Positions 11,953-28,767 of a stretch of 64,000 bases of DNA are shown piece by piece (the stretch's first letter is position 1; the number at the start of each line of letters is the position of its first letter). Origin of the DNA: Candidatus Altimarinota bacterium (GTDB lineage: Bacteria; Patescibacteriota; Gracilibacteria; 1-14-2-50-48-13); contig JBKBWQ010000001.1 of assembly GCA_046314355.1 (NCBI GenBank), forward strand, positions 1-64,000. The letters run 5' to 3'. Made by a program: the position numbers and the translations under genes. Below the pieces are notes generated by a model that had not been told where the DNA came from, did not search any database, and saw nothing but the letters and a program-made list of their open reading frames with translations.

Positions 11953-12145
11953 TTGACTAATCTAATTAATCAGCTAAGATGCGCTAGATTTCGCGAAAAA
12001 TAGAGAGTTGTGATCATTGAAAAATAGAAATGCTTACGGCAAGTATCTAGTGATTTATTGCAAAATAGAACCCTAGACTACTGGTACCTTGCAGTAAGCG
12101 GTAGTAGTAAGGTTTATTAAATATTATTATATTGGAGGAATTTCA
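11953..12145 (+). promoter_or_regulatory. Sigma70 promoter, structured 5' leader and SD of orphan cassette 1
   Basis: TTGACT-N16-TAAGAT; cgctagat...atctagtg closing helix; GGAGG 7 nt before ATG. Confidence 0.65.
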
Positions 12146-12628
12146 ATGAAAAAATTATTAGTACCTATCTCTATCTTTAGTATCGTTAGCTGTACGCCAG
12201 CAGCACCAAATCTACAGGAACTAAAAGCTCCTATTGTAGTAGCTGCAGCAAAGGATTCTCCTCAAGGAGTTCGTCCTCTTGGAGTAAATCAGATCATAGG
12301 TAAAATCACCCTGAGTGGAGCTAGAGATCTTGAGCAATTAAAAGTGAAAGTTCCTACAGAATTTTCAAATATTAAAGTGTTTCAAGGACCAACTCAACTC
12401 AGTGCCACAGCAGCTCTTCCCGGATTTGATGGAATTATTGCTTTCAGTATGGAGCAGATGATCCCCGACGGTACTAATAAGGAAATTATTATCAGGGCTG
12501 ATACTGACCGGATACAGAAGGATCCTATATCTGGTCAGAGAGAGGTAGTAATACAAATTTATTCAATTAAAGAGAAAGGAAAGGAAGAGAAAATTTTAAA
12601 CCTTGCATTACCGAAAGTGCTTTACTAG
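12146..12628 (+). CDS. Hypothetical lipoprotein (possibly Ig-like beta fold)
   Basis: MKK-hydrophobic-IVSC lipobox-like signal; strong SD. Confidence 0.75.
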   Translation: MKKLLVPISIFSIVSCTPAAPNLQELKAPIVVAAAKDSPQGVRPLGVNQIIGKITLSGARDLEQLKVKVPTEFSNIKVFQGPTQLSATAALPGFDGIIAFSMEQMIPDGTNKEIIIRADTDRIQKDPISGQREVVIQIYSIKEKGKEEKILNLALPKVLY

Positions 12629-12640
12629 CACGAGGTACCT

Positions 12641-12669
12641 AAAGGGACTGTATTTTTACAGTCCCTTTT
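12641..12669 (+). terminator. Intrinsic terminator of cassette 1
   Basis: aaagggactgta-tttt-tacagtcccttttt. Confidence 0.85.
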
Positions 12670-12727
12670 ATATTTGGGATTTTTTCAGTCTCATTCTCAA
12701 TGAATATAACTATAATCATCATTTCTC

Positions 12728-12794
12728 CACTTAAGCTAAGAATACTAATCCTCAGCTTACCTCAAGTCGAAACTCGAAAAAATAAAAGAACTCC
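12728..12794 (+). repeat. 67-bp direct repeat, left copy (duplicate of the O-methyltransferase 5' end with ATG changed to AAG)
   Basis: 63/67 identical to 23911-23977. Confidence 0.9.
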
Positions 12795-13012
12795 ACATAT
12801 AGAGTATCTCTACCTTCTTTTAAACCTCTGTCAGCATTTCTTGACAGCACAATAAAAAATAATTTCTTGTTTTGTATGTGCGTGAGAGTATACCTAGACA
12901 TGTTTAATATTTATGATAATACGTTATTAAAATTGAATCTTTAAAAACTACGACAGTCCATCCGGGAGAAAGACAGGAAAGCACAGAAATCTTAAAGAAT
13001 ACTTTTGTTGAA

Positions 13013-13495
13013 GTGTATGCATCTCTTGTCCGAGATCAGGTACATGAGACTGTAAAAGATATCGATGCAGAATTGAATTCGCTCAGAATACAAATGTTTT
13101 CTTTAGCTCAGCAAATAAATATGCTGGATGAGGGGAGAGATTATCTTCTGCAGAGAATTCTTAGGGAGAGATCTCTGGAGAGAGTGATCACGTATGTACA
13201 TAAGGAGTATGCCGATCGTGGTGATGAGCCTGAATTCAAATCTTTCTATATAAATTTTGAACTATATAAAGGCGATGATCATGAGAAAATTATAGGGTTG
13301 CTCGATAGGTCTGATTGCTATGAAGATACTACAATTGTGAGTGAATCTGAGAATGATGCCGTATTTTATGAACTTATTGAAAAATTTACAAAAGAAGGTG
13401 TAGTATTCTACGACGAAGATTTTCAAGTAATAGATGTAAATATGCTGAGAAAGAAGTGGAATGAGAGTGCCGCAGGGGATGGGGATAAATATTAA
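13013..13495 (+). CDS. Hypothetical acidic protein (start uncertain; frame open back to about 12920)
   Basis: 160-aa ORF; no motif recognised. Confidence 0.6.
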   Translation: MYASLVRDQVHETVKDIDAELNSLRIQMFSLAQQINMLDEGRDYLLQRILRERSLERVITYVHKEYADRGDEPEFKSFYINFELYKGDDHEKIIGLLDRSDCYEDTTIVSESENDAVFYELIEKFTKEGVVFYDEDFQVIDVNMLRKKWNESAAGDGDKY

Positions 13496-13659
13496 AGTAA
13501 AAAAGATAGGACAGATAAGTCTGATGCTATTCTCGTACAATGATTCTTGATCAAAATCTTTAAGAGCACATCGTATATTTAATGCGTGGTGCTCTTTTTT
13601 CATAATGATAGGGATAGAAATATGCTATACTATTCTGATATATCAGTTTTTATACATAT

Positions 13660-14505
13660 ATGCTCAACGAATATTCCTTTCTGGAAAAAATGGGACTTCA
13701 TAAAAATGAAGTAAAGTTATACCTACAGGGACTTGCTATAGGTACTCAAGCTACAAGCGTGTTTGCTAAGAAAACCGGTCTTCCTAGGTCCACAACTCAG
13801 CTCTATCTGCAAAATCTCGTGAAGCTTGGATTTATGTCAAAAACACTTCGTGCAGGAGTGCAGTATTTCACACCGTTCCCTCCCTCTGAGATTGAGAACA
13901 TCATAGATAGCAAAAAGGAAGAGTTAAATGTAATAGGAAATACACTGACAAATATGCTACCTCTTCTCAAGAGTCATCAAAATACGGATTATAATATGTC
14001 CCGAATGACTGTATTTGAAGGAAAGCTTGGAGTACAAAAACTCTTTAAAGATATTGTAGCAACAGGTAAAGAAGTTCTCGTATTTAAATCTCCCTTATAT
14101 CATTTTGATAATCCGGCTCTCCGTAAGATGACGGAATCCTTTATGCTCGAATTGAAGAGAAACGAGATTCCAGTGCGAGCCCTTACTCCAAAAGCCAAAA
14201 AACATAGTGCCGAGTATAGTATAAGCCAAGCTGAATATTATGGTTTTCAAAGACGTTTTATAGAGATGGATATCTATGAATTACCATGTCAGATTTTTGC
14301 CTATGGTGATAAATTGGGAATTATTACAAATGATAGTGAAATACAATGTGTAGTGATCCAAGAAAAATTTCTTACGACGCTCATGTATAGACAGTTTGAG
14401 TACCTATGGTCGGCAGCACTGCCATATCATAAAAAAGTACTAAAGGATGATGATCTTGAAAAGCATGAAGAGCCGTACCGAAAATTCATTCATCCTGAAG
14501 AATAG
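13660..14505 (+). CDS. TrmB-family transcriptional regulator
   Basis: LEKMGL..NE.KLYL..L..G...S..AKKTGLPRST...L..L...G wHTH; FEGK.G.. effector-domain start. Confidence 0.85.
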   Translation: MLNEYSFLEKMGLHKNEVKLYLQGLAIGTQATSVFAKKTGLPRSTTQLYLQNLVKLGFMSKTLRAGVQYFTPFPPSEIENIIDSKKEELNVIGNTLTNMLPLLKSHQNTDYNMSRMTVFEGKLGVQKLFKDIVATGKEVLVFKSPLYHFDNPALRKMTESFMLELKRNEIPVRALTPKAKKHSAEYSISQAEYYGFQRRFIEMDIYELPCQIFAYGDKLGIITNDSEIQCVVIQEKFLTTLMYRQFEYLWSAALPYHKKVLKDDDLEKHEEPYRKFIHPEE

Positions 14506-14535
14506 TCTCCTTTCGAAAGTAAGAAGGATACAATC

Positions 14536-17190
14536 CTACCAATAGGGACTTATATCTCCTATGACAAGTCCGCGAGTAAGTGTATCATTTGTAATAGCAT
14601 TTTTCGTATTAAATTTATAATTCTTCATAAGATTTAATACATATGGGAGGGTAGAGGATGAAGGACGGTAGTGACCTGATCCATTGTTGATTTCTACAAG
14701 TTCCCATGCTTTCGGAGTAAGAGTATTATTCCACATCTCCCATGCTTTTATATCGTTAAACTGTTTTTGATGTTTTTTAAATACGAATTCTCCTGCACCA
14801 AAAACATTATGTCCACCGGCAATCACACTATGGGGTGGACGGCGGGTAGCATTTTCACTGAGATTTTCTTCTAATATTTTAATGGTTTCATCCCAGGAGA
14901 CAGTATAGATAAATTTCAGTATATCCTGGTCAATAATCTTTGATATGCGCACTGCTATTTTATTATACTCACTTTTGTTTCCCAGTATTTCAGTAAGAAT
15001 TTCAAGTTTATTCTCGAGATATTCTTTTTCTTCTTCATACTCTCGAGCGAGCGGGAGAGTATGATCCTTCTTTAAAACATCTGATAGGGTTTTATAATTC
15101 TTGATGAGCGTTTGAAGTTTTTGTACTTTTCTCGCATAATTTTCTTTTACTTTTGCAGCTGTCTGCATTTTCTTTGTATAATGCTTTTTCTGTCCGTTAA
15201 AACTTATAGACTTAAGTCCTTCTTTTTCTGCTTCTGAGAGGTACTCTTCATTTATATGCATCCATATTTCTCTCTCAACACGGGAAGTATTTTCACGCAA
15301 AAGATTCAGTATGATTTGATTCATACCTTCCAAGGTGACATGAGACTTTGACACTGTTCTTTTATCTTTCGGATCAAAAATTTCACAAACAATTTTTCTT
15401 TGGCTCTCTCTCTTTTCTAAAATCTCAGGTAATTGCTGAACATATTGAAATTGATTTGAATCATAGTAGGATAATCCTCCAAATTTTATCTCTCGGATTA
15501 CATCCATAATGATATGTTGTATATCCAGAGCAATTCCCTCATCTTTTCCAGTATATCCTTTTTCTTTTCGAGAGGGAAAATGAGATACAGTTTTCATCTT
15601 CTTTTGAAAGTCCTGAATCTTATGTACATAGTCTACGGTTTTCTTAAGTACAGTTTCTAAATCCTTTTCAGGAATAGCATACGCCTCTTTTGCTCTTGTG
15701 AGATGAGGGTTCTGTGTCAGAAAGTTTTGTAGATTTTCAATAGCTTGGCCAATACTCTCTTCAGAAGAATCGGTACTAAATACGTCATGAGCATTATTTA
15801 GATTTATTATCTGATTTGAATGTTTTTTTACGAGCTGCTCCCAGATAGATTTATTCTTCTCTTTCTCATAAATGTTATAGAGATCATTATCTATAATACC
15901 GAGCGAATTATTCAAAAAAGGTTTTACATCAGAAGAGAAATACTCGTCTTTAAAGGAAAAAAGAACTTGTAGGATAGAGCTGTCATAGATTGCTTCCTGA
16001 AGACCTGCAATGACTTTTTTATCTTCTTCCGTATAGAGCATGTCGTCATTATGAAATCGTAGACCTTTTCGATGCTTTAGTGCTTTCTTCAAGATAAATC
16101 GATAATCATTTCCTGAAGGGAGTTTGAGGTTATAGATGATTTCAACATGCGGAAGATGTCCTAGATCACCTATCCCTGAACCCGTAGCCCACTTTAAAAA
16201 ATTCATATCGATAAGACCATTGGCTTCTAAAGTACATCCTGCGACTAAATCATGCTCTACTGCATAATTATATTTGAGAAGCTGATTAAAGTGATGTGGA
16301 TAATGTCCAAGTGTATTGCGACCATAGGTTTTGATTTCATAGATATAGGGCATGGTCTTCTCCGGTTGTTCACGTATCATGGGAACATCAAATCTCACTT
16401 CACTATTTCGTTGTGCCTTATAGCCTCCTTTGAGGAGTTCAGTTACGATAATTAGTGCAAAGGGAGGAGCCTTAAAAACATCTGTAAGAACCTTAGGAGA
16501 TACACCCTCATGAGCAGTCCAGCCCCCATCTGCATAAGAAAAAGCACTCAAAAATCTTGCCTTCTGTCTCTCGGGAAGTTTCTCTGCGAGTTGCTCAGGC
16601 CCGGAGAAAGAACGTAAAAATTCCTCAATACCTTCAAATGTAAATTCTAAAGGAGGAAGGCTCGTCGTTATTTTTTCTAAACCTTGTTCCGTAAGCTTAT
16701 TGATCCGTGTAATTTCAAAGAGTGCACCGTGTAATAGTCCTGATTTATCTAGAGCATTCGAGAGTTTATGTATGGATGATTTTATCTGTTTATAAAATTT
16801 TTCCTGTAAATGAATAGGTAGTTTTGCATAGGCATGTTGGAATTTGTCTGCAAGTTCCTGTTCAATTTCCTCCTCGGATGAGAGAGTATCTTCCAAAAAC
16901 TTTTTGTAATCAACGGGTATTTGATTCTTTGTCTCTCGCAGCTGTGTTAAAAGGATATTTCTATCCTTCTCCAATTCTGCTATTGCACTTGGTTTGGTAC
17001 CTTTTGAATTTTTATTATTTCTATAATATGACTCTATTTCTGAACTTACATTGTAGAGACGGGCTGCAATATCATTGATAATAGTTTCAATATTTTTTTT
17101 ACCATCTACTAAATTTCTATCAACTTCACGTACTAGTTGATCTTCTAAACTCACAGATTCAGATACAATTTGTTTAGTTTGAATTTTCAT
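14536..17190 (-). CDS. Large hypothetical protein with PD-(D/E)xK-like motif and C-terminal HS...AGE...N.SGHY.P domain
   Basis: 884-aa ORF; RFDVP...YEIKTY...NQLLKY; HSVIAGGHNVFGAGEF...INNGSGHYRP. Confidence 0.75.
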   Translation of the reverse strand: MKIQTKQIVSESVSLEDQLVREVDRNLVDGKKNIETIINDIAARLYNVSSEIESYYRNNKNSKGTKPSAIAELEKDRNILLTQLRETKNQIPVDYKKFLEDTLSSEEEIEQELADKFQHAYAKLPIHLQEKFYKQIKSSIHKLSNALDKSGLLHGALFEITRINKLTEQGLEKITTSLPPLEFTFEGIEEFLRSFSGPEQLAEKLPERQKARFLSAFSYADGGWTAHEGVSPKVLTDVFKAPPFALIIVTELLKGGYKAQRNSEVRFDVPMIREQPEKTMPYIYEIKTYGRNTLGHYPHHFNQLLKYNYAVEHDLVAGCTLEANGLIDMNFLKWATGSGIGDLGHLPHVEIIYNLKLPSGNDYRFILKKALKHRKGLRFHNDDMLYTEEDKKVIAGLQEAIYDSSILQVLFSFKDEYFSSDVKPFLNNSLGIIDNDLYNIYEKEKNKSIWEQLVKKHSNQIINLNNAHDVFSTDSSEESIGQAIENLQNFLTQNPHLTRAKEAYAIPEKDLETVLKKTVDYVHKIQDFQKKMKTVSHFPSRKEKGYTGKDEGIALDIQHIIMDVIREIKFGGLSYYDSNQFQYVQQLPEILEKRESQRKIVCEIFDPKDKRTVSKSHVTLEGMNQIILNLLRENTSRVEREIWMHINEEYLSEAEKEGLKSISFNGQKKHYTKKMQTAAKVKENYARKVQKLQTLIKNYKTLSDVLKKDHTLPLAREYEEEKEYLENKLEILTEILGNKSEYNKIAVRISKIIDQDILKFIYTVSWDETIKILEENLSENATRRPPHSVIAGGHNVFGAGEFVFKKHQKQFNDIKAWEMWNNTLTPKAWELVEINNGSGHYRPSSSTLPYVLNLMKNYKFNTKNAITNDTLTRGLVIGDISPYW

Positions 17191-17420
17191 GACTCTCTTA
17201 TATCAATTTACCTAAAAGTTATCACACTATTTATAGTCATAGTATTATATCATGGAGAGAGAAAATTTGATATGTTATGGCTTTGTTTTATGAATATATT
17301 TTCTCTTTAAACTATGATAGTGCCACTAATTAATGCTGTCAGTAGAAATATGTGTTTACAGTAAATAGACTACGTGATTTGACACGTATATCCTGTATAT
17401 TTTTATAATATAATTATTTC

Positions 17421-17609
17421 TGATACTATGCCGTTGTCTTCAATGAAGGGAATAGAAATATTCGCCGTCAGAGAGATTTCAGTTGATCTTTCACAACGAG
17501 GGAAAAATAATCTAAAGCAGAAATGCCCGGACGATTGTGATATATTGAAATGTACCATTGAAGCAATAATTATGTATGTATTTTACCTCTGTGAGGTTAG
17601 GAGAACGAT
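17421..17609 (+). promoter_or_regulatory. Promoter, four-way-junction leader motif (copy A) and SD of cassette 2
   Basis: TG-a-TACTAT extended -10; 32 nt identical to 23036-23067; AGGAG before ATG. Confidence 0.75.
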
Positions 17610-18383
17610 ATGACTCAGAATTTAAATATTACCGCTATTACTGAAGAACTCAAAGTGTATGGTGAGAATCATAAATTAAGAGGACTTGAAGGCCGTATTT
17701 TTAGAGGGCTTGATATTGCAGGAATGCTTGCTGTAGAGACTACAAGGAAACTTGCAGAACAGATAGCAGATAAAATGCAGGTTTCAATGAGTGATCTTGA
17801 AAAAGTTACCAATGAACTTCATGTGGGTACCATTTGGGAATACTCTGATAAATTTCTCAGCAGCAAGGATGCCGCGGTAAATGTATGGATGATCCTTGCC
17901 GAGAGATGTATAGGGCCAAAAATAAAACCTGGCGACCTATCCTCTGAAGAATTTATCGAAGATACAAAGAGAGTTATCACTGAACTCAGTGAAGCAGCAG
18001 AGGATCCGCAGACATTTTTAACTCAAGCTGTTGAAAACCAGGTTATACAGGCTAAAAAAGGCTTTGAGATAGTGGATGGTGTAGCTTTTATAAAGCAGGA
18101 AGGATCCTTCTTACATGCTGCTATTGCTGGTTTGAAATCAGGAATTTCTGAAAGAGTCAGTGATAATGAAACTCTTTTTCACGTGGGAGCTCAGACACTT
18201 GATTTGAATAAGGTTGCGCAGCAGTTTTCTCTTAAAGAAGTCGAAAGAGAAGATCGCGGCAGGGTAGTTACTTTCTATCAGAATAGTGAAGATCAGGATG
18301 TAATCAAAAAATTATATCCGGGTTACGGAATTGTCTTTAACTCTAGGGAAGTCGCTATCGCATTGGCAAAGACTGCATTGTAA
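17610..18383 (+). CDS. Hypothetical protein (257 aa)
   Basis: Long ORF with strong SD; no family recognised. Confidence 0.8.
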   Translation: MTQNLNITAITEELKVYGENHKLRGLEGRIFRGLDIAGMLAVETTRKLAEQIADKMQVSMSDLEKVTNELHVGTIWEYSDKFLSSKDAAVNVWMILAERCIGPKIKPGDLSSEEFIEDTKRVITELSEAAEDPQTFLTQAVENQVIQAKKGFEIVDGVAFIKQEGSFLHAAIAGLKSGISERVSDNETLFHVGAQTLDLNKVAQQFSLKEVEREDRGRVVTFYQNSEDQDVIKKLYPGYGIVFNSREVAIALAKTAL

Positions 18384-18416
18384 ATTATTTTTTCTCGTTG
18401 ATAAGGAGGTGATCAT

Positions 18417-18446
18417 GCCGCTCATAGTATTTGAGCGGCTTTTTTT
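18417..18446 (+). terminator. Intrinsic terminator of cassette 2
   Basis: gccgctca-tagtatt-tgagcggc-ttttttt. Confidence 0.85.
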
Positions 18447-18696
18447 ATACATAGTATATTGAGCAAAGGTATTTTTCTCATAACTTCTCTTTTATTTACG
18501 CTCTTTAATTACTTTATGTTGCCAGAAAAAGTTGGCAGCTCTTTTTAACGTGTATGTACTTACCTTTTTTGCGCTTGACATAATATGCATAAATTATTTT
18601 ACATTGTTATTAATCTAATTATAATCACTCCACTTCTAGTCTATATAGTGCTTAAGAAACATTATAAATAGATATCATATTTAAATAATTACATTT

Positions 18697-20496
18697 ATGT
18701 ATAACAAAAAAACATCGTACGGTTTTTCCGAAAAGGTGTTAGAGAAAAAGATATTTAAAAGAATGTCGCCTCAACTAGAGTCCTTTACGATTCAACATCA
18801 AAAACTAGCTATTAATACTGCTCTGCTCGGAGCGCTTCTTCCATCTGTTCATGTATCCAGAAGTGAGACTGAAAAGAAAAAAATGAATATTGTTATGACA
18901 GCTCTTGCTCCAAGTGTACCGGAAGTCAGACCTCAAAGTCCTGAACAAAATCAGATGTCTGAAGAATTTTCTATATTTCTTTCAGATTTTAATGCAGTAC
19001 TCTCCGCAGATCGAGCAGAACATAAAGGTAAGAATGAATGGTATATACAGATAGAGAATTTGAAAAAATCTGCGTATTACGGAGAGTTTCTAAAAAAGTT
19101 TATAAGAACCGTTGATGAGGTATTGAACTTAGAAAAAAATAAGCACGATACAAAGATCCGAGGTGTACTTTCTTTTATATGTTCTAGGTTTTTGTACACT
19201 GAGAGTACAGGAGATATGCATGATAATACAATCCTCCAGGAACAGATCCTTTTATTTGGAAAGCTGATACAGAATGGATATATATTTGAGCACTCTTTTT
19301 CAGATTTTACACGGACTCTAAATGCAAATATAGAGAGTTTATCGCTCAGGAATATGAATTATATTCTTTATTCTATCGAAAGATCTCCGCAGCGTATACA
19401 ACGTACAAAGACAGGTATCAATGTGATATCAGCTATAGGTCCAAAAATGATAAGTGAGTTTAATAAAATGATGTCTGGAGATCGCCCAAAAGCGTATGAA
19501 TTCACTACAGAGACAAGCCATGATTTGACTCCAGATAATGTTATTCATTTTCTAAAGAATATATTGAAGATTACAACGTATACAAAGAAAGATTTTCACA
19601 CAGCGATGGAATTTCTTGTTCAAAGAAAAGACAGATTAGAGGAAAAAGATCTCAGATCATTATTTTGGATATTAAAAAAAGCAATGGTAAATATCGATCA
19701 GTGGCTTGATCCTTTTATGGGTCAAACTATGGAAGTTATACGGAAACTAAAAGTTTCGGATATGATATCTATGTATTATCAATATGTGATGTCCCATGGA
19801 AACAATCCTCAGATTCTCACTCTATTTCATGAAAAACTGAAGGAAAACAGTACTTCTCTTAAAAGTAATGAGATTAGCATATTATTTTATGTACATGCAT
19901 ATGATAAAAATAAAGATATGGATCTTCAAAAGATACTTCTGCAGAAAATAACTGATAAAAATCTTCACATATCTCCCACTGATATCATTTCCATTGTGAG
20001 AGCATTTGCGATCTTAAATATCTCTGTACCAAATCATATCAACCAGCTCTATCAGACACATATAAGAAGTATGAAAGATACATCTACACATCTTGAGAAG
20101 TCCATTGCAAGTTGGATGCGGACAGAAGTGAGTAAGCTTGGAGTGTTTTCATTTGAAAGCAATAAAATGAATAGCTTTGGTGTAGAAATGGATATTGTCG
20201 TAAGCAATGAATTTAATAAGCTCAATATTGAATGTGATGGAGTGATGTATCACAATACCAATTCAGAGAAACATCTAAAAGATGACCATAGAGATGCTCT
20301 TGTGCGAGAAGCAGGATTTGGAGTAATGAGAGTTACGGACAAGGAATTTTATAGTGATCCTGAACATCTACGACTACGCAGAAGATTACAGCGTTTTCTG
20401 AAATTAAAAGGAATGATAAAACCTACAAAGTATATTCCGTCCGGAAAACATCAACGCTCTATAAAAGAGGAGAATGAGCTCTCTAAAACGGAGTAA
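18697..20496 (+). CDS. Helical-repeat protein with C-terminal RAP/DUF559-like endonuclease domain
   Basis: EMDIVV...LNIECDGVMYH...D..RD..V...GFGVMRV; preceding helical repeat-like segments. Confidence 0.75.
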   Translation: MYNKKTSYGFSEKVLEKKIFKRMSPQLESFTIQHQKLAINTALLGALLPSVHVSRSETEKKKMNIVMTALAPSVPEVRPQSPEQNQMSEEFSIFLSDFNAVLSADRAEHKGKNEWYIQIENLKKSAYYGEFLKKFIRTVDEVLNLEKNKHDTKIRGVLSFICSRFLYTESTGDMHDNTILQEQILLFGKLIQNGYIFEHSFSDFTRTLNANIESLSLRNMNYILYSIERSPQRIQRTKTGINVISAIGPKMISEFNKMMSGDRPKAYEFTTETSHDLTPDNVIHFLKNILKITTYTKKDFHTAMEFLVQRKDRLEEKDLRSLFWILKKAMVNIDQWLDPFMGQTMEVIRKLKVSDMISMYYQYVMSHGNNPQILTLFHEKLKENSTSLKSNEISILFYVHAYDKNKDMDLQKILLQKITDKNLHISPTDIISIVRAFAILNISVPNHINQLYQTHIRSMKDTSTHLEKSIASWMRTEVSKLGVFSFESNKMNSFGVEMDIVVSNEFNKLNIECDGVMYHNTNSEKHLKDDHRDALVREAGFGVMRVTDKEFYSDPEHLRLRRRLQRFLKLKGMIKPTKYIPSGKHQRSIKEENELSKTE

Positions 20497-20540: not shown

Positions 20541-22238
20541 TTACTGAAGAGTAGTCAGGAAATCTTTAAAGATTTTTCTTTTCACTACTGGCTTCAAATC
20601 AATAAAATCTTTGCTGATTGAACTCCTCATTATATCTGCTGTAAGATCTTTCATGATCATATCAATGGCTGGAGATAATTGATCGTTCGTTGGAGTAAAA
20701 TCGATTATCCAGTTATCGTAGAATTTTTTATCATCCGCACGTTCTCCAAAGTAAGAGATGATGATATCGATATATTGAAAAATATTTTTCTGTAAGGCAA
20801 CTGTTTCAGGATAGGTGAGTCCTTCCTGATATATTCCGAAATCCTTAAGTAGATCGCTAAATACTGTAGAGATAATAGTACGAATGTTTTGCGCTTTTAT
20901 GTATGTTTCAATATACGCTTTGTTCTTCATTACTTCATCTATTTTATGCTCTATGACATCTACAGAATTTGATTCATTAATTGCCTGAGTAATGAGTCCA
21001 TGATTTTCTGCAACAAATCGGTAAGGTGTATTTTGAGGATAAATTGTAGAAGATACTTCATTTGCTGTTTTACCTTCTGAATTAATTACGAGCGCTTCAC
21101 GAAGTCTGTATCCTTGAGGAATTTTGTTAAAAGAGCTTGTTCGTGAATTATTTTCTGTCCAGTTTTTTCTTTCATTATTTCCTTTTTTAGAGGAAATGTA
21201 GTTTCTCACATTTCTCTCAACCAATTCTTTTGCTGAATTTGTCTGAGAATTTACTTTTATAATATGAATTAATTCTGAAGGTTTTCTATCATATGTGGTT
21301 TCTACTTCTTCTTTGTTTTCTCTCTCGTGCGTTGGGTTCTGTAGCACTTTAGAAGCAGCTGCCTGTTGAGCAAGTATATTAAAGATTGAATTTACTGCTG
21401 CTATGTAATCACCGTCAGTATTTTTTTCTGTATCAAGCTCAAAGGTATTATCTAGCATATCCCCATTTTCATTGATTCGTATAACTAGTCCTTTAGATAA
21501 TGTATTTCTGAGATTTACATCAGTAAGTTTGCTCATCTTCGTAATCTGATCATAAGTAAGCAAAGTTGATTTCCAAATATTTTCACCTTTTGGAAGATGT
21601 TCTTTCGCTATGTTTGCGTAGAAATAGTATTCGTTATTAATCTCTACAGGTCCTGGCAACTCTACTAGTTTATATTCATTTTTAAGAAGAGCAGAATCTA
21701 TCCAGGATTTCCCATTTTGCATTGTAAAATCTACAGATCGTTTGATGGAATGCACCTGGTCTTTTGCATATTTTTTTAAATACTGAGCAAGGATATAATC
21801 CACTAAGGACTCTTTGTTTAAGTTACTCGCATTCTCTTCAGAGAGATAACCCTTGTTTACAAGAAGGTTTTTAAAGGCATTCGTAAGTGAACTGTCCATC
21901 ACATCTTCGTCAGAATGGCTGCCTGCTATCTTATCTTTCAATCCTTTTTGCGTAGGACGTAGAACTATGGTGTCTGCAATCTTATCTTTTATAAGAATGT
22001 AGTTTGTCTTGGCTTTGCTATTATGAAAAATATACCCCTTGAGAAGACGTGCCTCATCCTCATCTCGTAATAAGTGATCAAAATTTTTTCCAAGATCGGA
22101 ATTGATAAAATAATTTTTTCGGAGAGCTCTTATCTTATCCTGGGAAAAAAGTGAAGTAAGTTCTGCAGAGAGCGTTTCATAATTATTATTGTATGTTCGC
22201 TTCTCGGGAAACTTAGGTGAATAGTGTGTCGAGATCAT
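20541..22238 (-). CDS. Hypothetical protein (565 aa)
   Basis: Long ORF; no motif recognised. Confidence 0.75.
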   Translation of the reverse strand: MISTHYSPKFPEKRTYNNNYETLSAELTSLFSQDKIRALRKNYFINSDLGKNFDHLLRDEDEARLLKGYIFHNSKAKTNYILIKDKIADTIVLRPTQKGLKDKIAGSHSDEDVMDSSLTNAFKNLLVNKGYLSEENASNLNKESLVDYILAQYLKKYAKDQVHSIKRSVDFTMQNGKSWIDSALLKNEYKLVELPGPVEINNEYYFYANIAKEHLPKGENIWKSTLLTYDQITKMSKLTDVNLRNTLSKGLVIRINENGDMLDNTFELDTEKNTDGDYIAAVNSIFNILAQQAAASKVLQNPTHERENKEEVETTYDRKPSELIHIIKVNSQTNSAKELVERNVRNYISSKKGNNERKNWTENNSRTSSFNKIPQGYRLREALVINSEGKTANEVSSTIYPQNTPYRFVAENHGLITQAINESNSVDVIEHKIDEVMKNKAYIETYIKAQNIRTIISTVFSDLLKDFGIYQEGLTYPETVALQKNIFQYIDIIISYFGERADDKKFYDNWIIDFTPTNDQLSPAIDMIMKDLTADIMRSSISKDFIDLKPVVKRKIFKDFLTTLQ

Positions 22239-22332
22239 AGAAAAGATTAATATGTTAATATTATAATAACATAAAAATATAGAAGTCGCAATTAGCGTCT
22301 TCTATATGAATTTAAGCAACTTGATTCTCAGA

Positions 22333-22851: not shown

Positions 22852-23001
22852 ATTTTTACCTCCTTTTTGTATACTTAGGCATATTACAATTTTTTTTAAA
22901 AATAGCAATAATATATTAAGTTGTTAACATTTTCTGTCACTAAGTGTAAATTTTGTTTTCTATAAACAAAAATAGCGAATTTACAAATACATGTTATATT
23001 T

Positions 23002-23173
23002 TTGAGTATATTTTATATTTCTGATAGTATACCGCTGTCTTCAATGAAGGGAATAGAAATATTCGCCTCACGGAGAATGCAATGATCTTTTACAGTAAGT
23101 GAGAAATGTAAATTTAAAAGAATTTATTAATTGTTATTTTTGCTTAAAGTAAGCAAAGAAAAGGAGGCTTCAT
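23002..23173 (+). promoter_or_regulatory. Promoter, four-way-junction leader motif (copy B) and SD of cassette 3
   Basis: TTGAGT-N17-TAGTAT with TG extension; shared 32-nt core; AAGGAGG before ATG. Confidence 0.78.
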
Positions 23174-23785
23174 ATGGCAGGAATGGGAGTATCGTATAGC
23201 GTAAGTACCGATAGAGAACTCTCTGTAGATGAAAGAGTTACTACTCAGACTTTGCTCAACAGAAGGTCACAGATTCATCAAAGACTTCAAGTACTCAGAG
23301 AGTTAGATATGAGTATTGAATTTAAGAATCAGTGTCCAAAGTGTGCTTATCAGGTAACTCTGGAAGAAGTGTTAGAAGGTTTTGATCTAAGTAAGACCTA
23401 TGATACTAGAACCGAGTGTCCTAAATGTAGAGAAAAGTTTCAGCCTGAAATTGAATTTAATCATTTGGCTCATAACGGATCTTATACGTTCTATTGTGAA
23501 ACCCAGGCTCTACAAGCCCTAGAGGATGAATATGAAAATATGAATCCTATGGAAATTTTAGAGGATAATCCGGGACTCTTTATCTCTAGCTTAGTACATT
23601 TTGGTGCGATACCGAATGCATTTAAGATGATTGACACTGAGTATAACTGGAAATTTAAATACAATAAATGGAAAGAAAGAGCCATTCCGTACTTAAATAT
23701 CATACCTGTAGGAGTACTTGCCGAAGTTTTAGGTGTAAGTAACTCTAGTCTCTATAAGTTAAAGAAATTGCACGCAAAAGAATAG
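23174..23785 (+). CDS. Hypothetical zinc-ribbon protein with putative C-terminal HTH
   Basis: CPKC...CPKC; VGVLAEVLGVSNSSLYKL HTH-like tail. Confidence 0.75.
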   Translation: MAGMGVSYSVSTDRELSVDERVTTQTLLNRRSQIHQRLQVLRELDMSIEFKNQCPKCAYQVTLEEVLEGFDLSKTYDTRTECPKCREKFQPEIEFNHLAHNGSYTFYCETQALQALEDEYENMNPMEILEDNPGLFISSLVHFGAIPNAFKMIDTEYNWKFKYNKWKERAIPYLNIIPVGVLAEVLGVSNSSLYKLKKLHAKE

Positions 23786-23811
23786 TTTCTCACTCTGAAA
23801 AATAAATCAGT

Positions 23812-23840
23812 ACCACTGCATATGTATGCGGTGGTTTTTT
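23812..23840 (+). terminator. Intrinsic terminator of cassette 3
   Basis: accactgcata-tg-tatgcggtggt-ttttt. Confidence 0.85.
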
Positions 23841-23910
23841 ATTATGTAAAAATACTATCTTTTGATATGATCCAGATCTTTCTCAATTATCTCGACTTAT
23901 TTCCACTCTT

Positions 23911-23977
23911 CACTTAAGCTAAGAACACTAATCATCAGCTTTCCTCATGTCGAAACTCGAAAAAATAAAAGAACTCC
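23911..23977 (+). repeat. 67-bp direct repeat, right (intact) copy
   Basis: Matches 12728-12794; contains the start codon of the O-methyltransferase. Confidence 0.9.
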
Positions 23978-24513
23978 GTCTCGCCTCTATCGCCCGCAAA
24001 GTCCCGAATGTGACTGAAGAGAATGGGAAATTTCTCTATATGATGACACGTTCTCTGAAGCCGAAAAAGATTCTGGAGATTGGGACAGCAAACGGAATCT
24101 CTACACTTTTTTTTGCAGCGGCTCTTGAACAGAACGGAGAAGGGAAGATATATAGTATTGAGCCACAGGACAAGGATCACTTGGAGGCAAAAGGATATAT
24201 GAAGGAGCTAGATGTTGAAAAATATACTGAACTACATCACGGCAGAGTGCAGGATGTGCTGCCGGAGATAGATGAGGAGTTTGATCTGGTGTTTATAGAT
24301 GGTATGAAAAAGGAGTATGCTGAATACTTTCTTATTTCCTTATGGAGGACTCATCAGGATACTGTCTTTCTCTTTGATGATGTGATCAAATTCCGTCATA
24401 AAATGGATGCACTTTTTGAAGTACTTGAGGATAGAAAAGATGATTTTGAATGGACTATACTGCCTATTGATCCGGATGACGGTGTACTTATGCTTCATAA
24501 GAAAGCAGTATGA
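23947..24513 (+). CDS. Class I SAM-dependent O-methyltransferase (YrrM/TrmR-like)
   Basis: ILEIGTANGIS, FDLVFIDG motifs. Confidence 0.9.
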   Translation: MSKLEKIKELRLASIARKVPNVTEENGKFLYMMTRSLKPKKILEIGTANGISTLFFAAALEQNGEGKIYSIEPQDKDHLEAKGYMKELDVEKYTELHHGRVQDVLPEIDEEFDLVFIDGMKKEYAEYFLISLWRTHQDTVFLFDDVIKFRHKMDALFEVLEDRKDDFEWTILPIDPDDGVLMLHKKAV

Positions 24514-25475: not shown

Positions 25476-25507
25476 AAAAATACCCTTCAGTGTAGAAGGG
25501 TATTTTT

Positions 25508-26053: not shown

Positions 26054-26174
26054 GGAAAGAGTAGTTAATATACGTTCATATTATTATACATCACATAGTA
26101 CTTTTTTTGCAAAAATGACAGACAAGTTATTTAAAAAAGCTCTGTTCCCAAGAGAAACAGAGCTTTTTGTACTG

Positions 26175-27566
26175 CTATGCTGCAAGCTTTTCAGCTAAAT
26201 AAGTCTTTAGATCAGCTATTGCTACTCTTTCCTGTACCATCGTATCTCGATCTCGCACAGTCACCATGTTATCCTCAAGACTATCGAAGTCATAAGTGAT
26301 GCAGTACGGTGTACCAATCTCATCCTGTCTTCGGTATCTTTTACCCACATTTCCGTTCATATCAAATTCTGTTTGATACTCCCTGGAAAGAGTTTGGAAA
26401 ATCTCACGTGCCTTTTCTACAAGTTCAGGTTTATTCTTCATTAAAGGGAATACAGCGACCTTTACCGGTGCGAGATGTTTAGGAAACTTCATGACTGTTC
26501 TTGTCTCCTCTCCTACTTTTTCCTCGGTATATGCAAGATCCATAAAGAGAAGAAAAAGTCTGTTGAGACCTACTGAAGTTTCCATAATATGCGGGATAAA
26601 TCTCTCCTTTGTCTGATCATCAAAGTAAGCGAGATCGACTCCTGAGAATTTACTGTGCTGGCTAAGGTCCCAATCTCCTCGCGCATGGATACCTTCCACT
26701 TCTTTGAATCCTTTGAGACAGCCGTAGTTGAATTCAATGTCATAGGCATCAGAAGCATAGTGAGCAAGCTTTTCATGCTTATACCATCTGATTCTATCCT
26801 CCGGCACTCCGTTTTCCAGGAACCATTTCCATCTGATATCTTTCCACATAGAAAAGGAAGTCTCCATCATAGAAGGATGAAGGAAATACTGCATTTCCAT
26901 CTGCTCGAACTCCCGTGTTCTAAAGACAAACTGACGAGCTACGATCTCATTTCGAAAGGCTTTACCTACCTGTGCTATACCAAACGGAAGCTTCGGATGC
27001 ATAGATTCGAGAGTATTCTTGTACTCAAGATAGATACCTCCGCATGTCTCAGGACGGAGATAGCTAATATTATCTTCATCTGTGAGATCTCCAGTTGGAG
27101 AACCGAGGTTTGATTTTACGATAAGCATAAATCTCTTTGCCTCAGTAAGGTCCTTTGATCCACACTTCGCACATTTTAGTTTTCCTTCTGCGCGCAGTTT
27201 ATCGAGCTCAGCATTGATGACATCAAGAGGTTGCTTGTCTGCATTTACCCCAAACTCTTCTAATATATGATCTGCTCTATACCGGGATTTACATTCCTTA
27301 CAGTCAATCTGAGGATCATCAAAATTTTCGATGTGTCCAGAAGCAAGCCATGTACGAGGATGCATGAAGATCGCACTATCAAGTCCGATGATATCTTCAC
27401 GGTACTGAACCATGGATTTCCACCAGCTATCGCGAATGTTGTTTTTCAAAAGTGCTCCGTAATGACCGTAGTCATAGATAGCGCTGAATCCCCCATAGAT
27501 TTCAGAGGAAGGAAAGACGAATGCACGTCGTTTAGATAGACTAACTATCTGTTCCATTGTTGCCAT
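26175..27566 (-). CDS. glyQS: Glycine--tRNA ligase, alpha2 (homodimeric) type
   Basis: SEIYGG, YLRPET, GKAFRNEI, FRTREFEQME, GKRYRRQDEIGTP. Confidence 0.96.
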   Translation of the reverse strand: MATMEQIVSLSKRRAFVFPSSEIYGGFSAIYDYGHYGALLKNNIRDSWWKSMVQYREDIIGLDSAIFMHPRTWLASGHIENFDDPQIDCKECKSRYRADHILEEFGVNADKQPLDVINAELDKLRAEGKLKCAKCGSKDLTEAKRFMLIVKSNLGSPTGDLTDEDNISYLRPETCGGIYLEYKNTLESMHPKLPFGIAQVGKAFRNEIVARQFVFRTREFEQMEMQYFLHPSMMETSFSMWKDIRWKWFLENGVPEDRIRWYKHEKLAHYASDAYDIEFNYGCLKGFKEVEGIHARGDWDLSQHSKFSGVDLAYFDDQTKERFIPHIMETSVGLNRLFLLFMDLAYTEEKVGEETRTVMKFPKHLAPVKVAVFPLMKNKPELVEKAREIFQTLSREYQTEFDMNGNVGKRYRRQDEIGTPYCITYDFDSLEDNMVTVRDRDTMVQERVAIADLKTYLAEKLAA

Positions 27567-27605
27567 AATGGTAATTGGTAACTAAGTAATTAAGTAATTT
27601 GAGAA

Positions 27606-27661
27606 TGTCATCCCGTTCGATAAATATTTCTTGAGCATCTTATTCCTGCCCAACGGGATCC
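27606..27661. repeat. REP-like element tgtcatcccgttcga...caacgggatcc
   Basis: atcccgtt/aacgggat terminal inverted repeat; similar to 369-425. Confidence 0.65.
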
Positions 27662-27693
27662 AATTGGTATGAAGCTATTTCTTATTCTTACAC

Positions 27694-27862
27694 AAAAATA
27701 ACCTCATAGCATTGCTATCAGGGACGAGTATTTACCCGTGGTTCCACCCATATTCCGTGAACCACTCGCTTCGCTCGGGTACACGGCACGCCGGTACGAG
27801 ATAACTAGTGATCACGACACTTTCATTCTATGCCGGCGAAAAGGCGCCAATCTCTTTTCGTG
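27694..27862 (-). promoter_or_regulatory. T-box riboswitch leader of glyQS (Gly GGC specifier, ultrashort stem I)
   Basis: Minus strand: AATATGGGTGGAACCACGG...CTCGTCCC antiterminator, terminator plus U-run; CGAAAAG-AGATTGGCGC-CTTTTCG stem I; promoter TTGGCA-N17-TATAGT. Confidence 0.85.
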
Positions 27863-27903
27863 GAAACTATATCATGAGTGAAATATTATGCCAATAGGAA
27901 ACA

Positions 27904-28038
27904 TTGACATAATAAGAATAAGTATTAATATGCGCACAAGCTTAATTGCGAAAAGGGGTACATGAGTTCATGTATTCCAGATCCGTAGGGGCTCGCGATT
28001 GAAGTGATTATGTTTTTTTGAAAATTGGAGGATAAAAA
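27904..28038 (+). promoter_or_regulatory. Promoter, three-way-junction leader and SD of cassette 4
   Basis: TTGACA at 27904; ttaattgcga...tcgcgattga closing helix with inner gggtacatga/tcatgtattc hairpin; GGAGG before ATG. Confidence 0.65.
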
Positions 28039-28464
28039 ATGGATATTGATAAAGTGATTGGGAGTATTCTCTCAATTCAAGACTATTATGATTTTGTACG
28101 TGCCGCTGTGAGATTTAGTAAGAAATACGATCAAACGACTTTCTATGAAGCTCTACTTGAAAATCAGAACCACTTTTATATCTTAGTAAATAAGATTAAT
28201 GAATATGGTTATGTAGAAAATGATATAAGAGCAATATTATACGTACCAAAAACAAAAGCTGAATTTTTACAGAATGTTGAAAAGCTTGGTTTTATTATAC
28301 CATCCAACATCTTGCAAAGGTTCAAGAGCTCTTCATGGACTGAGGATTATCAGAATAGAGTAATGAGAGCTCTTTGCTCTATACATACTATTTATGACAG
28401 AGATAGCAGTATTATTAAGTCTATTACAAATACCAATAAAGATTGTGAATGTTCAGAGGAATAA
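28039..28464 (+). CDS. Hypothetical protein (141 aa)
   Basis: ORF with strong SD and own terminator (28505-28529). Confidence 0.72.
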   Translation: MDIDKVIGSILSIQDYYDFVRAAVRFSKKYDQTTFYEALLENQNHFYILVNKINEYGYVENDIRAILYVPKTKAEFLQNVEKLGFIIPSNILQRFKSSSWTEDYQNRVMRALCSIHTIYDRDSSIIKSITNTNKDCECSEE

Positions 28465-28767
28465 ATAAAAAATTAAAAGACGTAATCTCCTCCTAATTAC
28501 TATGAAAGCTTACTGCGGTAAGCTTTTTTGTTCGTGAAATTTCCTAAGATATGCAAAATACTTTTTTCATTAAACTACTTCTATATCTTCTACTATCAAA
28601 TCTCTATTCAAAAAAGAGTCAAAAATAATTTAAAATGGCTCGTGCATGCTCTTTAGAAAAAGTTTTTACATGTTGATCCAAATATTTTCCATTTCTACGT
28701 ATCCCATTAGTAAGATTTCTGTTAGGATTCCCCAGACTAATATTTCCCCCTTTCAGCTCTCCTCTCC

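What the first reader, a model, noticed from the sequence alone, without database searches (positions are those of the whole stretch)
11953..28529. Candidate new system: self-closing, SD-led orphan mRNA cassettes
Seen: four unrelated orphan genes (12146, 17610, 23174, 28039) each form a stand-alone unit. Each has a sigma70 promoter, a 105-180 nt leader that folds from the predicted start site, a strong SD, the ORF, a segment at or just after the stop codon complementary to that gene's own leader (about 13 to 40 bp, interrupted), and an intrinsic terminator. The pairing sequences differ completely between cassettes, so architecture rather than sequence is conserved. G-U pairs favour the sense-strand RNA. 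In cassettes 1-3 (weakly in 4) the 3' partner competes with a local leader helix, predicting a fold switch once transcription finishes. Known analogies are hok/Sok-type fold-back mRNAs and RNase III processing stems, but these ORFs are 141-257 aa, not small toxins. Inference: these are stabilised, stored, processed/circularised or exported mRNAs. One speculative option is translation by SD-using host ribosomes, since the housekeeping genes here lack SDs.
Basis: partly seen in the sequence, partly recalled or inferred. Interest (0 to 1): 0.9.

Follow-up and report, generated by a model that had tools for sequence, protein, structure and literature searches.

The report
Genes whose mRNA ends pair up
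Four stand-alone accessory genes, and a sizeable minority of similar genes in this bacterium and in a distant relative, carry a short sequence just after the stop codon that matches their own leader, so the finished mRNA probably folds closed on itself, as is known so far for only a few single bacterial genes.

Summary
The four units are real. Each has an ORF, a strong SD and an intrinsic terminator.

Broad tests of 5'-3' pairing were negative genome-wide. A targeted test was positive. It compared the stop-codon-to-terminator segment with the gene's own 200-nt leader.
- G000, 129 stand-alone terminated genes: 15 of 54 SD-led genes reached p<=0.05 (binomial 4e-8) against 5 of 75 SD-less genes.
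- With six discovery genes removed: 10 of 49 against 4 of 74.
- All four cassettes scored p 0.016-0.047.
- Own CDS and far-upstream controls were null.
- G019, another family of the class: 17 of 75, in SD-led and SD-less genes alike.

Two leader families shared by unrelated ORFs show matched leader/tail changes.

Against the claim:
- each cassette alone is only modestly significant;
- homologues in G184 and G002 lack the closure;
- G.U asymmetry is inconclusive;
- no RNA data exist.

The closest known cases are the hbs and icaR 5'/3'-UTR interactions. Host-ribosome translation is unsupported, because the organism's own 16S carries the anti-SD. I rate it a new variant of a known kind.

The parts
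11953..11980 (+). cassette 1 promoter-like site (TTGACT-16-TAAGAT)
   Evidence: 9 of 12 matches. It is a consensus match only.
12083..12116 (+). cassette 1 leader arm (three helices of 8, 7 and 10 bp with the tail arm)
   Evidence: Whole-transcript MFE. 25 pairs have p>0.5 in the ensemble.
12146..12628 (+). cassette 1 ORF, 160 aa, putative lipoprotein (signal peptide followed by Cys), SD GGAGG
   Evidence: No homologue except a weak hit in G002.
12597..12639 (+). cassette 1 tail arm (last 10 codons, stop codon and 11 nt of 3' UTR)
   Evidence: RNAduplex z -5.2, with 0 of 300 shuffles as good.
12641..12668 (+). cassette 1 intrinsic terminator
17379..17511 (+). cassette 2 promoter and leader module homologous to that of cassette 3; includes the 5' arm 17421-17438 and the leader arm 17487-17511
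17610..18383 (+). cassette 2 ORF, 257 aa, SD AGGAG
   Evidence: Homologues are P0002 (43% identity) and G184.
18351..18415 (+). cassette 2 tail arm (core 18384-18407, directly after the stop; AUCA 18412-18415 pairs with the 5' end)
   Evidence: I1: 20 nt, 75%
18417..18439 (+). cassette 2 intrinsic terminator
23016..23107 (+). cassette 3 leader module; includes the 5' arm 23021-23025 and the leader arm 23088-23107
23174..23785 (+). cassette 3 ORF, 203 aa, four-Cys zinc ribbon plus a helical C-terminal part, SD AGGAGG
23785..23810 (+). cassette 3 tail arm (23785-23801 pairs with the leader arm; AUCAG 23806-23810 pairs with the 5' end)
23812..23835 (+). cassette 3 intrinsic terminator
27904..27931 (+). 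cassette 4 promoter-like site (TTGACA-16-TAATAT)
   Evidence: 10 of 12 matches
27938..28018 (+). cassette 4 structured leader core (three-way junction P1-P3). Three copies occur in the genome. The leader arm is 28003-28018.
28039..28464 (+). cassette 4 ORF, 141 aa, SD GGAGG
   Evidence: No homologue found.
28475..28501 (+). cassette 4 tail arms (28475-28487 and 28494-28501), with a CUCCUCC anti-SD-like stretch between them
   Evidence: This is the weakest of the four.
28504..28527 (+). cassette 4 intrinsic terminator
   Evidence: p 0.039

Best explanation
Each unit is an ordinary, independently transcribed accessory gene. The short 3' UTR lies between the stop codon and the terminator hairpin; in cassette 1 the last ~30 nt of the ORF also take part. 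This stretch base-pairs with a gene-specific part of the unit's own 5' leader, so the completed mRNA forms a panhandle with paired ends.

This is the hbs/icaR kind of intramolecular 5'/3'-UTR interaction, but here it recurs in many genes of the lineage.

Inferred mechanism, not shown: the organism has RNase Y, RNase J, RNase III and PNPase, and no RNase E/G was found. In that setting the closing helix would control decay and translation. It would hide single-stranded entry sites in the leader and tie the 5' end next to the terminator hairpin in cassettes 1-3. In the cassette 4 leader family it would cover the SD itself.

The helix abuts or includes the stop codon, so a terminating ribosome must melt it. 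Closure would therefore report whether the mRNA is being translated.
For: TARGETED TEST, G000
- The set is 129 genes with at least 200 nt of upstream spacer and a terminator 5-70 nt after the stop.
- 20 of 129 reached p<=0.05 (binomial 6.9e-6).
- SD-led genes: 15 of 54 (4e-8). SD-less genes: 5 of 75.
- With a dinucleotide-shuffle null: 12 of 54 against 5 of 75.
- The result holds with an SD-class-only null (12 of 54) and with the SD region cut from the leader (12 of 54). Only 3 of 54 tails contain CTCC.
- Without six discovery genes: 10 of 49 (1.3e-4) against 4 of 74.

CONTROLS
- Own CDS start against tail: 5 of 105.
- -400..-201 upstream against tail: 0 of 41.

REPLICATION IN G019
- G019 is from another family; 1.6 of its 1.93 Mb were analysed.
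- 17 of 75 reached p<=0.05 (1.4e-7).
- Controls: 2 of 67 and 1 of 22.

THE WINDOW
- 5 of 6 SD-led qualifying genes reached p<=0.05, against 0 of 7 SD-less ones.

WHOLE-TRANSCRIPT FOLDS
- Expected leader-tail pairs were 29.6, 44.9, 24.9 and 16.8. The mean of 161 controls was 9.4.
- Tail-swap chimeras reached the observed value in 0, 0, 0 and 3 of 14.

MATCHED CHANGES
- Homologous leader columns of cassettes 2 and 3 pair with each gene's own post-stop tail. Three pairs are changed on both sides. This is my reading.
- In the cassette 4 leader family, SD-region against tail complementarity ranks 1 of 1412 and within the top 10 of 1412 for the two paralogous-leader genes. In the 3x3 cross matrix of whole leader against tail, each gene's own tail is its best partner.

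ENZYMES AND PRECEDENTS
- RNase Y, RNase J and RNase III are present; RNase E/G was not found. PNPase is in the window.
- Precedents, from abstracts: hbs has a 14-bp 5'/3'-UTR interaction. The icaR 3' UTR pairs with the SD.
Against: BROAD TESTS WERE NULL
- RNAduplex, cognate against non-cognate over 1400 genes: MWU p 0.20.
- SD-led against SD-less stand-alone genes: p 0.58.
- Whole-transcript pairs, 48 SD-led against 113 SD-less controls: 9.2 against 9.6.
- SD region against tail: no class effect.

OTHER POINTS AGAINST
- The positive test was designed after I had seen the cassettes.
- Each cassette alone is only p 0.02-0.05.
- In the gapless inverted-repeat listing the leader-tail pair is top only for cassette 2. 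In the other four regions examined, three cassettes and the 48224 unit, it is not the top one.
- The cassette 2 homologue in G184 has no long leader, SD or terminator.
- The cassette 1 relative in G002 has an SD and a terminator but no closure (8.0 expected pairs).
- G002 as a whole gave 0 of 7 and 1 of 24, which is underpowered.
- G.U against A.C counts do not decide between RNA and DNA. They were 29:22 in G000 (p 0.09), 25:25 in G019, and pooled p 0.23.
- In the SD-region-only matrix, cassette 4's SD region scores higher with g292709's tail (24) than with its own (18).
- Gene calls and terminators came from my own simple scripts.
- No model organism was run as an outgroup.
- No transcript ends or structures were measured.
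Confidence: 0.5

Rival explanations
1. Chance plus selection. The four are ordinary monocistronic accessory genes in AT-rich DNA. The complementarity was picked out by eye and has no function. The class-level excess comes from my post-hoc test design.
For: - Four broad tests were null.
- Per-cassette p values are only 0.016-0.047.
- Comparable inverted repeats lie inside each unit.
- The homologues in G184 and G002 lack the closure.
Against: - The excess survives removal of the discovery genes: 10 of 49, binomial 1.3e-4.
- It survives two independent nulls.
- Position controls are null.
- The untouched genome G019 shows the same excess, 17 of 75.
- Tail-swap chimeras reached the observed value in 0 of 14 for cassettes 1-3.
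Confidence: 0.2
2. A DNA-level feature. The ORFs are bracketed by gene-specific inverted repeats left by the way cassettes are inserted or rearranged, for example insertion into a palindrome or an inversion. There is no role in the RNA.
For: - G019 shows no G.U over A.C excess (25:25), and antisense-type scoring also gives a signal there, 13 of 75.
- Unrelated ORFs sit in shared leader/tail frames.
- An 11.2-kb low-GC segment bracketed by direct repeats holds cassettes 2 and 3.
Against: - The arm sequences differ from gene to gene, which does not fit one site-specific recombinase.
- No integrase or transposase domain was found in the ORFs scanned.
- Both arms lie inside the predicted transcription unit. 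The far-upstream control is null: 0 of 41 and 1 of 22.
- In G000, sense scoring gives 20 of 129 against 9 of 129 for antisense scoring.
- The changes between cassettes 2 and 3 keep pairing, where neutral decay would break it.
Confidence: 0.15
3. hok/Sok-like type I toxin mRNAs, kept inert by fold-back pairing until 3' processing.
For: The 5'-terminal CUGAU/UGAU pairs with AUCAG/AUCA right before the terminator in cassettes 2 and 3. This recalls the fold-back element of hok mRNA, which I cite from memory.
Against: - The ORFs are 141-257 aa. One is a predicted lipoprotein and one belongs to a widespread zinc-ribbon family.
- None matched the defence or toxin-antitoxin models of PADLOC.
- No antisense RNA gene was identified.
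Confidence: 0.03
4. One reading: the mRNAs are exported or circularised and translated by SD-using host ribosomes.
For: Most genes here lack an SD; 226 of 1419 have a strong one.
Against: - The organism's own 16S ends in the canonical anti-SD, so its own ribosomes can read SD-led genes.
- SD motifs are enriched at start codons five-fold over a decoy position: 226 against 42.
- Nothing in the sequence indicates export or ligation.
Confidence: 0.01

Closest known systems
Bacillus subtilis hbs mRNA 5'/3'-UTR interaction (Braun, Durand and Condon 2017, PMC5737220; abstract read)
   Same: - Monocistronic mRNA with a structured 5' UTR and a strong SD.
- A ~14-bp long-range helix joins the 5' and 3' UTRs.
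- The decay machinery is RNase Y, RNase J1 and PNPase. All three are also encoded here.
   Different: - hbs is one conserved housekeeping gene with experimental proof.
- Here there are many unrelated accessory genes, each with its own arm sequences, and the evidence is prediction only.
- The tail arm abuts the stop codon.
Staphylococcus aureus icaR 3'-UTR/SD pairing (Ruiz de los Mozos et al. 2013, PMC3868564; abstract read)
   Same: - A 3'-UTR motif pairs with the SD region of the same mRNA, blocks initiation and makes an RNase III substrate.
- The cassette 4 leader family has this layout: 14 bp and 12 bp over the SD in the two paralogous-leader genes.
- RNase III is encoded.
   Different: - icaR has a long 3' UTR (over 100 nt, per the abstract). 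Here the tails are 10-40 nt.
- Cassettes 1-3 do not pair with the SD: ranks 735, 290 and 920 of 1412.
Long-range anti-SD-like sequences in B. subtilis mRNAs (Gill et al. 2025 preprint, PMC12697547; abstract read)
   Same: Intramolecular pairing over hundreds of nucleotides with the RBS lowers mRNA level and translation.
   Different: That work finds such sequences depleted from natural genes. Here complementary tails are enriched, and most of them do not target the SD.
hok/Sok fold-back mRNA (recalled, not read here)
   Same: The 5' end pairs with the 3' end of the full-length mRNA. A refolding step is predicted.
   Different: There is no small toxin ORF, no antisense RNA, and the ORFs are 141-257 aa.
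rRNA processing stalks cut by RNase III (recalled), and engineered paired-termini RNAs in E. coli (Nakashima et al. 2006, PMC1635301; search listing only)
   Same: Complementary flanks bracket the functional RNA. Paired termini stabilise it or direct its processing.
   Different: Those are rRNAs or engineered antisense RNAs. They are not natural protein-coding mRNAs.

Membership tests
hbs-type 5'/3'-UTR interaction | Long-range helix of about 14 bp between the 5' UTR and 3' UTR of one mRNA | tested here: met
   - MFE helices: cassette 1 has 8+7+10 bp; cassette 2 has 7+9 bp plus others; cassette 3 has 10+3+4+5 bp; cassette 4 has only 8 bp.
- Above controls for cassettes 1-3.
- This is prediction only.
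hbs-type 5'/3'-UTR interaction | Strong SD, with RNase Y and RNase J as the decay enzymes | tested here: met
   SD calls. RNase Y scores 641 bits and RNase J 491 bits, both over their cut-offs.
hbs-type 5'/3'-UTR interaction | Pairing modulates endonuclease cleavage and mRNA stability | not testable with these tools
   No RNA holder was listed for this DNA.
icaR-type 3'-UTR anti-SD pairing | The 3'-UTR motif is complementary to the gene's own SD region | tested here: inconclusive
   - Met for the two genes that share the cassette 4 leader: rank 1 and within the top 10 of 1412.
- Cassette 4 itself ranks 147.
- Not met for cassettes 1-3: ranks 735, 290 and 920.
icaR-type 3'-UTR anti-SD pairing | RNase III is available to cut the duplex | tested here: met
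   RNase III scores 236 bits, over its cut-off.
hok/Sok type I toxin-antitoxin | Small hydrophobic toxin ORF and an antisense RNA | tested here: not met
   - The ORFs are 141-257 aa.
- No PADLOC match.
- The antisense RNA was not looked for beyond the promoter scan.
Integron gene cassette (attC) | An imperfect palindrome contained within the 3' end of the cassette, with an integron integrase nearby | tested here: not met
   - The arms are separated by the whole ORF.
- No integrase domain was found in the ORFs scanned.
- The attC definition is recalled.
Known cis-regulatory RNA family (Rfam 15) | A match at the gathering score in a leader | tested here: not met
   - 0 matches in the window at gathering threshold.
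- None of the matches with E up to 5 lies in a leader of the four cassettes.
Intrinsic (Rho-independent) terminator | A G+C-rich hairpin followed by a T run, directly after the gene | tested here: met
   All four are listed.

The most novel reading that the evidence does not exclude
In this bacterial class a substantial share of monocistronic mRNAs, about 15-25% of stand-alone terminated genes in two families, would be built as translation-gated panhandles.
- A gene-specific stem brackets the SD and the ORF from the leader to the stop codon.
- The terminating ribosome itself opens the stem.
- An untranslated mRNA snaps shut. It is then either stored with paired ends or cut by RNase III, much as rRNA is cut at its processing stalk.

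This would be a general bacterial counterpart of closed-loop mRNA. Unrelated ORFs would be swapped into reusable leader/tail frames.
Probability: 0.15. Interest if true: 0.85.

Novelty: new variant of a known kind. Interest (0 to 1): 0.62.

Why it matters
Intramolecular 5'/3'-UTR pairing in bacteria rests on a handful of single-gene studies such as hbs and icaR. The icaR paper called its own case 'a singular example'.

If the excess found here is real, two things follow:
- Such closure is a recurrent design principle in an uncultivated, small-genome lineage.
- It gives dozens of natural helices with different sequences, on which to test how paired mRNA ends affect decay by RNase Y, J and III and how they couple to translation.

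It also shows unrelated ORFs sitting in shared leader/tail frames. That bears on how accessory genes acquire expression signals.

My five literature searches listed no paper that describes a genome-wide class of this kind. I read only listings, three abstracts, and passages of one preprint. Supplements were closed.

Tried and rejected
TESTS THAT GAVE NO SIGNAL
- RNAduplex of a 193-nt leader against a 76-nt tail for 1400 genes. Cognate mean -26.65 against non-cognate -26.44; additive-model residuals gave MWU p 0.20.
- Smith-Waterman pairing scores on the same wide windows. There was only a slight excess in the extreme tail, largely from low-complexity repeats. SD-led against SD-less stand-alone genes gave p 0.58.
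- SD region against tail, by class.
- Whole-transcript pair counts by SD class.

I keep these as evidence against a strong, universal effect. I think the wide windows (40 nt of CDS plus the terminator) diluted the signal.

SEARCHES FOR ORTHOLOGOUS CASSETTES
- Cassette 2 was not found in 40 relatives.
- Two metagenome scans found no locus.
- One homologue in G184 has no such frame.
- Cassette 1 has only a weak relative in G002, without closure.
- Cassette 3 was found in 2 of 400 other genomes of the class. Those loci, L013 and L014, were not examined.

OTHER STEPS
- The covariance model R1 of the cassette 4 leader found only its three own copies in 41 genomes.
- G002 as a replication genome had only 31 qualifying genes, which is too few.
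- Rfam gave nothing in the leaders.
- Protein function: no Pfam, NCBIfam, PHROGs or PADLOC family above cut-off for the four ORFs. The cassette 3 AlphaFold model (pLDDT 90.4) has no PDB match at E<=0.001.
- Expression: no RNA holder was listed for this DNA.

WASTED OR FAILED CALLS
- timed out with no output.
- timed out after three of the four cassettes.
- One search was a pointless two-row alignment made while I looked for a way to reference loci.
- collected a ticket too early.
- One search returned 0 papers.

REJECTED IDEA
- A generic anti-SD motif in tails as the cause of the class signal. Only 3 of 54 tails contain CTCC, and the signal persists with the SD region removed.

Full report
WHAT IS THERE

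The window is the first 64 kb of contig C1 of a 1.69-Mb genome in 28 contigs.
- Each is preceded by a strong SD (GGAGG, AGGAG, AGGAGG, GGAGG).
- Each is followed within 13-40 nt by a hairpin plus T run that the terminator scan lists.
- They have no paralogues in the genome and no family above cut-off in Pfam, NCBIfam, PHROGs or PADLOC.
- The neighbouring housekeeping genes (rpsB, tsf, a class II aaRS, PNPase, a D-Ala-D-Ala carboxypeptidase) have no SD by my caller.

Genome-wide, 226 of 1419 called genes have a strong SD, against 42 of 1419 at a decoy position. SD-led genes are shorter and have longer upstream spacers: medians 193.5 against 259.5 aa, and 188 against 105 nt. The organism's own 16S rRNA ends in the canonical anti-SD. 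The SD-led genes therefore need no foreign ribosome.

WHAT WAS OVERSTATED
- Promoter-like hexamers are listed for cassettes 1 and 4 only. Such matches are hardly above shuffles here (82 against 66.9 +/- 9.2).
- Only the cassette 4 leader folds clearly better than shuffles (z -2.78). The others give -1.20, -0.30 and -1.82.
- 'Orphan' holds for cassettes 1 and 4 in the searches I ran. Cassette 1 has one weak hit in G002. Cassette 2 has a 43%-identical metagenome protein and a homologue in G184. Cassette 3 belongs to a family with 211 cluster representatives at E<=0.001.
- The cassettes are not fully independent. The promoter and leader of cassettes 2 and 3 are homologous. The cassette 4 leader has two more copies, at C1:292566-292711 and C1:1255382-1255512, in front of unrelated ORFs.

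FIRST ROUND OF TESTS: MOSTLY NEGATIVE

RNAduplex of the leader against the tail, compared with shuffles, gave:
- cassette 1: z -5.2, 0 of 300 shuffles as good;
- cassette 2: z -2.7;
- cassette 3: z -1.9 (cassette 4 was lost to a time-out).

Over 1400 genes, cognate pairs were no better than non-cognate ones (means -26.65 against -26.44; residual MWU p 0.20). The null-tail probabilities for the four cassettes were 0.0024, 0.0127, 0.25 and 0.38.

A helix-type alignment score gave the same picture. It showed no difference between SD-led and SD-less stand-alone genes (p 0.58).

SECOND ROUND: WHOLE-TRANSCRIPT FOLDS

All four predicted transcripts put leader-tail helices in the MFE and in the ensemble. 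Expected leader-tail pairs were 29.6, 44.9, 24.9 and 16.8. The mean for 161 other stand-alone genes of 100-300 aa was 9.4. Of those controls, 7, 1, 10 and 25 of 161 did as well. Swapping in the tail of another gene reached the observed value in 0, 0, 0 and 3 of 14 chimeras. Among the controls, however, SD-led and SD-less genes did not differ (9.2 against 9.6).

THE PARALOGOUS FRAMES

In cassettes 2 and 3, homologous leader columns pair with the sequence directly after each gene's own stop codon: 17495-17511 with 18384-18399, and 23088-23107 with 23785-23801. The first bases of the predicted RNA, UGAU and CUGAU, pair with AUCA and AUCAG just before the terminator stem. Reading together, three pairs are changed on both sides and stay paired.

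In the cassette 4 leader family, the two other members have 14 bp and 12 bp between the SD region and the bases right after the stop codon. They rank 1 of 1412 and within the top 10 of 1412 for that measure. Cassette 4 itself ranks 147. In a 3x3 cross matrix of whole leader against tail, each gene's own tail is its best partner. In the SD-region-only matrix that does not hold for cassette 4: its SD region scores 24 with g292709's tail and 18 with its own.

THE TARGETED TEST

These cases suggested a narrower test. It takes only the segment from the stop codon to the terminator stem and compares it with the gene's own 200-nt leader.

All 352 genes with a terminator 5-70 nt after the stop:
- 34 of 352 had p<=0.05 (binomial 2.2e-4).
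- Genes with less than 100 nt of upstream spacer served as an internal negative: 4 of 116.

Composition-matched set of 129 genes with at least 200 nt of upstream spacer:
- SD-led genes gave 15 of 54 (4e-8) and SD-less genes 5 of 75 (Fisher p 0.0023).
- With dinucleotide shuffles of the tail the counts were 12 of 54 and 5 of 75.

The signal is gene-specific:
- It holds against other SD-led leaders only (12 of 54).
- It holds with the SD region removed (12 of 54).
- Only 3 of 54 tails contain CTCC.

Without the six genes that suggested the test it is 10 of 49 (1.3e-4) against 4 of 74.

Position controls are null: own CDS start against tail 5 of 105, and -400..-201 against tail 0 of 41.

In the window, 5 of 6 qualifying SD-led genes reach p<=0.05. 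These are the four cassettes plus 48224-48673 on the minus strand. None of 7 SD-less genes does.

REPLICATION
- G002, of the same family, has only 31 qualifying genes: 0 of 7 and 1 of 24. That is uninformative.
- G019 is from another family of the class. I analysed 1.6 of its 1.93 Mb. It gives 17 of 75 (1.4e-7), with helices up to 20 bp and null position controls (2 of 67 and 1 of 22). There the effect is present in SD-led genes (9 of 35) and SD-less genes (8 of 40) alike.

The closure tendency is therefore not peculiar to this genome. Its tie to the SD is not general.

RNA OR DNA?
- In G000, scoring that allows G.U gives 20 of 129. Scoring that instead allows A.C, the antisense strand's wobble, gives 9 of 129.
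- In helices chosen by Watson-Crick score alone, G.U outnumbers A.C 29:22 against a 45% baseline (p 0.09).
- In G019 the counts are 25:25, and antisense scoring still gives 13 of 75. The pooled p is 0.23.

What favours RNA:
- Both arms lie inside the predicted transcription unit.
- The far-upstream control is null.
- The arm sequences differ from gene to gene.
- The changes between cassettes 2 and 3 preserve pairing.

MECHANISM (INFERRED)

The genome encodes RNase Y, RNase J and RNase III. No RNase E/G was found. PNPase is in the window. This is the B. subtilis type of decay machinery.

In B. subtilis hbs mRNA, a 14-bp 5'/3'-UTR helix modulates RNase Y cleavage in a structured leader, and ribosomes at a strong SD block RNase J1 (abstract). 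In S. aureus icaR, a 3'-UTR motif pairs with the SD, blocks initiation and creates an RNase III substrate (abstract). In B. subtilis, anti-SD-like sequences far downstream pair with the RBS and promote decay (abstract).

I therefore read cassettes 1-3 as hbs-like and the cassette 4 leader family as icaR-like. The tail arm starts at the stop codon or within 3 nt of it in 19 of 20 significant G000 genes. This is partly by construction, because the test window starts there. A terminating ribosome would have to open the helix.

VERDICT

The feature is a new variant of a known kind: a recurrent, class-level form of 5'/3'-UTR closure. It is not a new system. Everything about function is inference. 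No transcript data exist for this DNA.

Noticed in passing
window 27717-27865 (-): A sub-threshold T-box leader match (37.2 bits against a gathering score of 93; E 3e-5). It lies directly upstream of the class II aminoacyl-tRNA synthetase gene 26175-27566 (-). It accounts for part of the 472-nt spacer in front of cassette 4.
   Followed up: no
window 12728-12794 and 23911-23977: A direct repeat (94% over 67 nt; by eye the similarity runs to about 110 nt) duplicates the upstream region and first codons of the methyltransferase gene 23947-24513. It brackets an 11.2-kb segment of lower G+C (0.33-0.36 against about 0.40) that holds cassettes 2 and 3, a TrmB-like regulator and three large ORFs of unknown function. 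It looks like an inserted island. No integrase domain was found in its ORFs.
   Followed up: partly
window 27938-28018; C1:292605-292686; C1:1255418-1255497: An 80-nt structured 5'-UTR element: a three-way junction with P1-P3, and three pairs changed on both sides among the three copies. It sits in front of three unrelated ORFs. It is not in Rfam, and the model found it only in this genome among 41 searched.
   Followed up: yes
window 18400-18447: The cassette 2 tail carries a strong SD-like AAGGAGGTGATC followed by an ATG at 18415. That ATG opens a mini-ORF of about 15 codons running through the terminator hairpin.
   Followed up: no
whole genome; in the window e.g. 9587-9810: One dispersed repeat family of palindromic AATTATTGAGCTCAATTATT-type units links 133 of 896 intergenic spacers of at least 50 nt. 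Other repeat families occur at 2537-3104, 34711-35248 and 42484-42984.
   Followed up: partly
window 23174-23785: The cassette 3 protein belongs to an uncharacterised family of about 200 aa (211 cluster representatives). It has four invariant Cys in a zinc-ribbon layout and a helical, HTH-like C-terminal part. The AlphaFold model is confident (pLDDT 90.4) but has no PDB match at E<=0.001. The family was found in only 2 of 400 other genomes of the class.
   Followed up: partly
window 18697-20496: A 599-aa ORF with a C-terminal DUF559 / MTES_1575 restriction-endonuclease-like domain lies inside the island. The neighbouring 565-aa ORF (20541-22238, -) has a weak NucC-like stretch (E 5e-4).
   Followed up: no
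whole genome: There are two gene populations. Most genes are SD-less and closely spaced. SD-led genes make up 16% of all genes but 42% (54 of 129) of stand-alone genes with a long upstream spacer and a terminator.
   Followed up: partly
G019:C1:915852-924064: Two tandem large genes (1342 and 1288 aa) are each bracketed by near-identical 18-20-bp arms (TACTTTGTAYTTAGAA type). A local hairpin in a duplicated spacer could mimic long-range pairing here.
   Followed up: no
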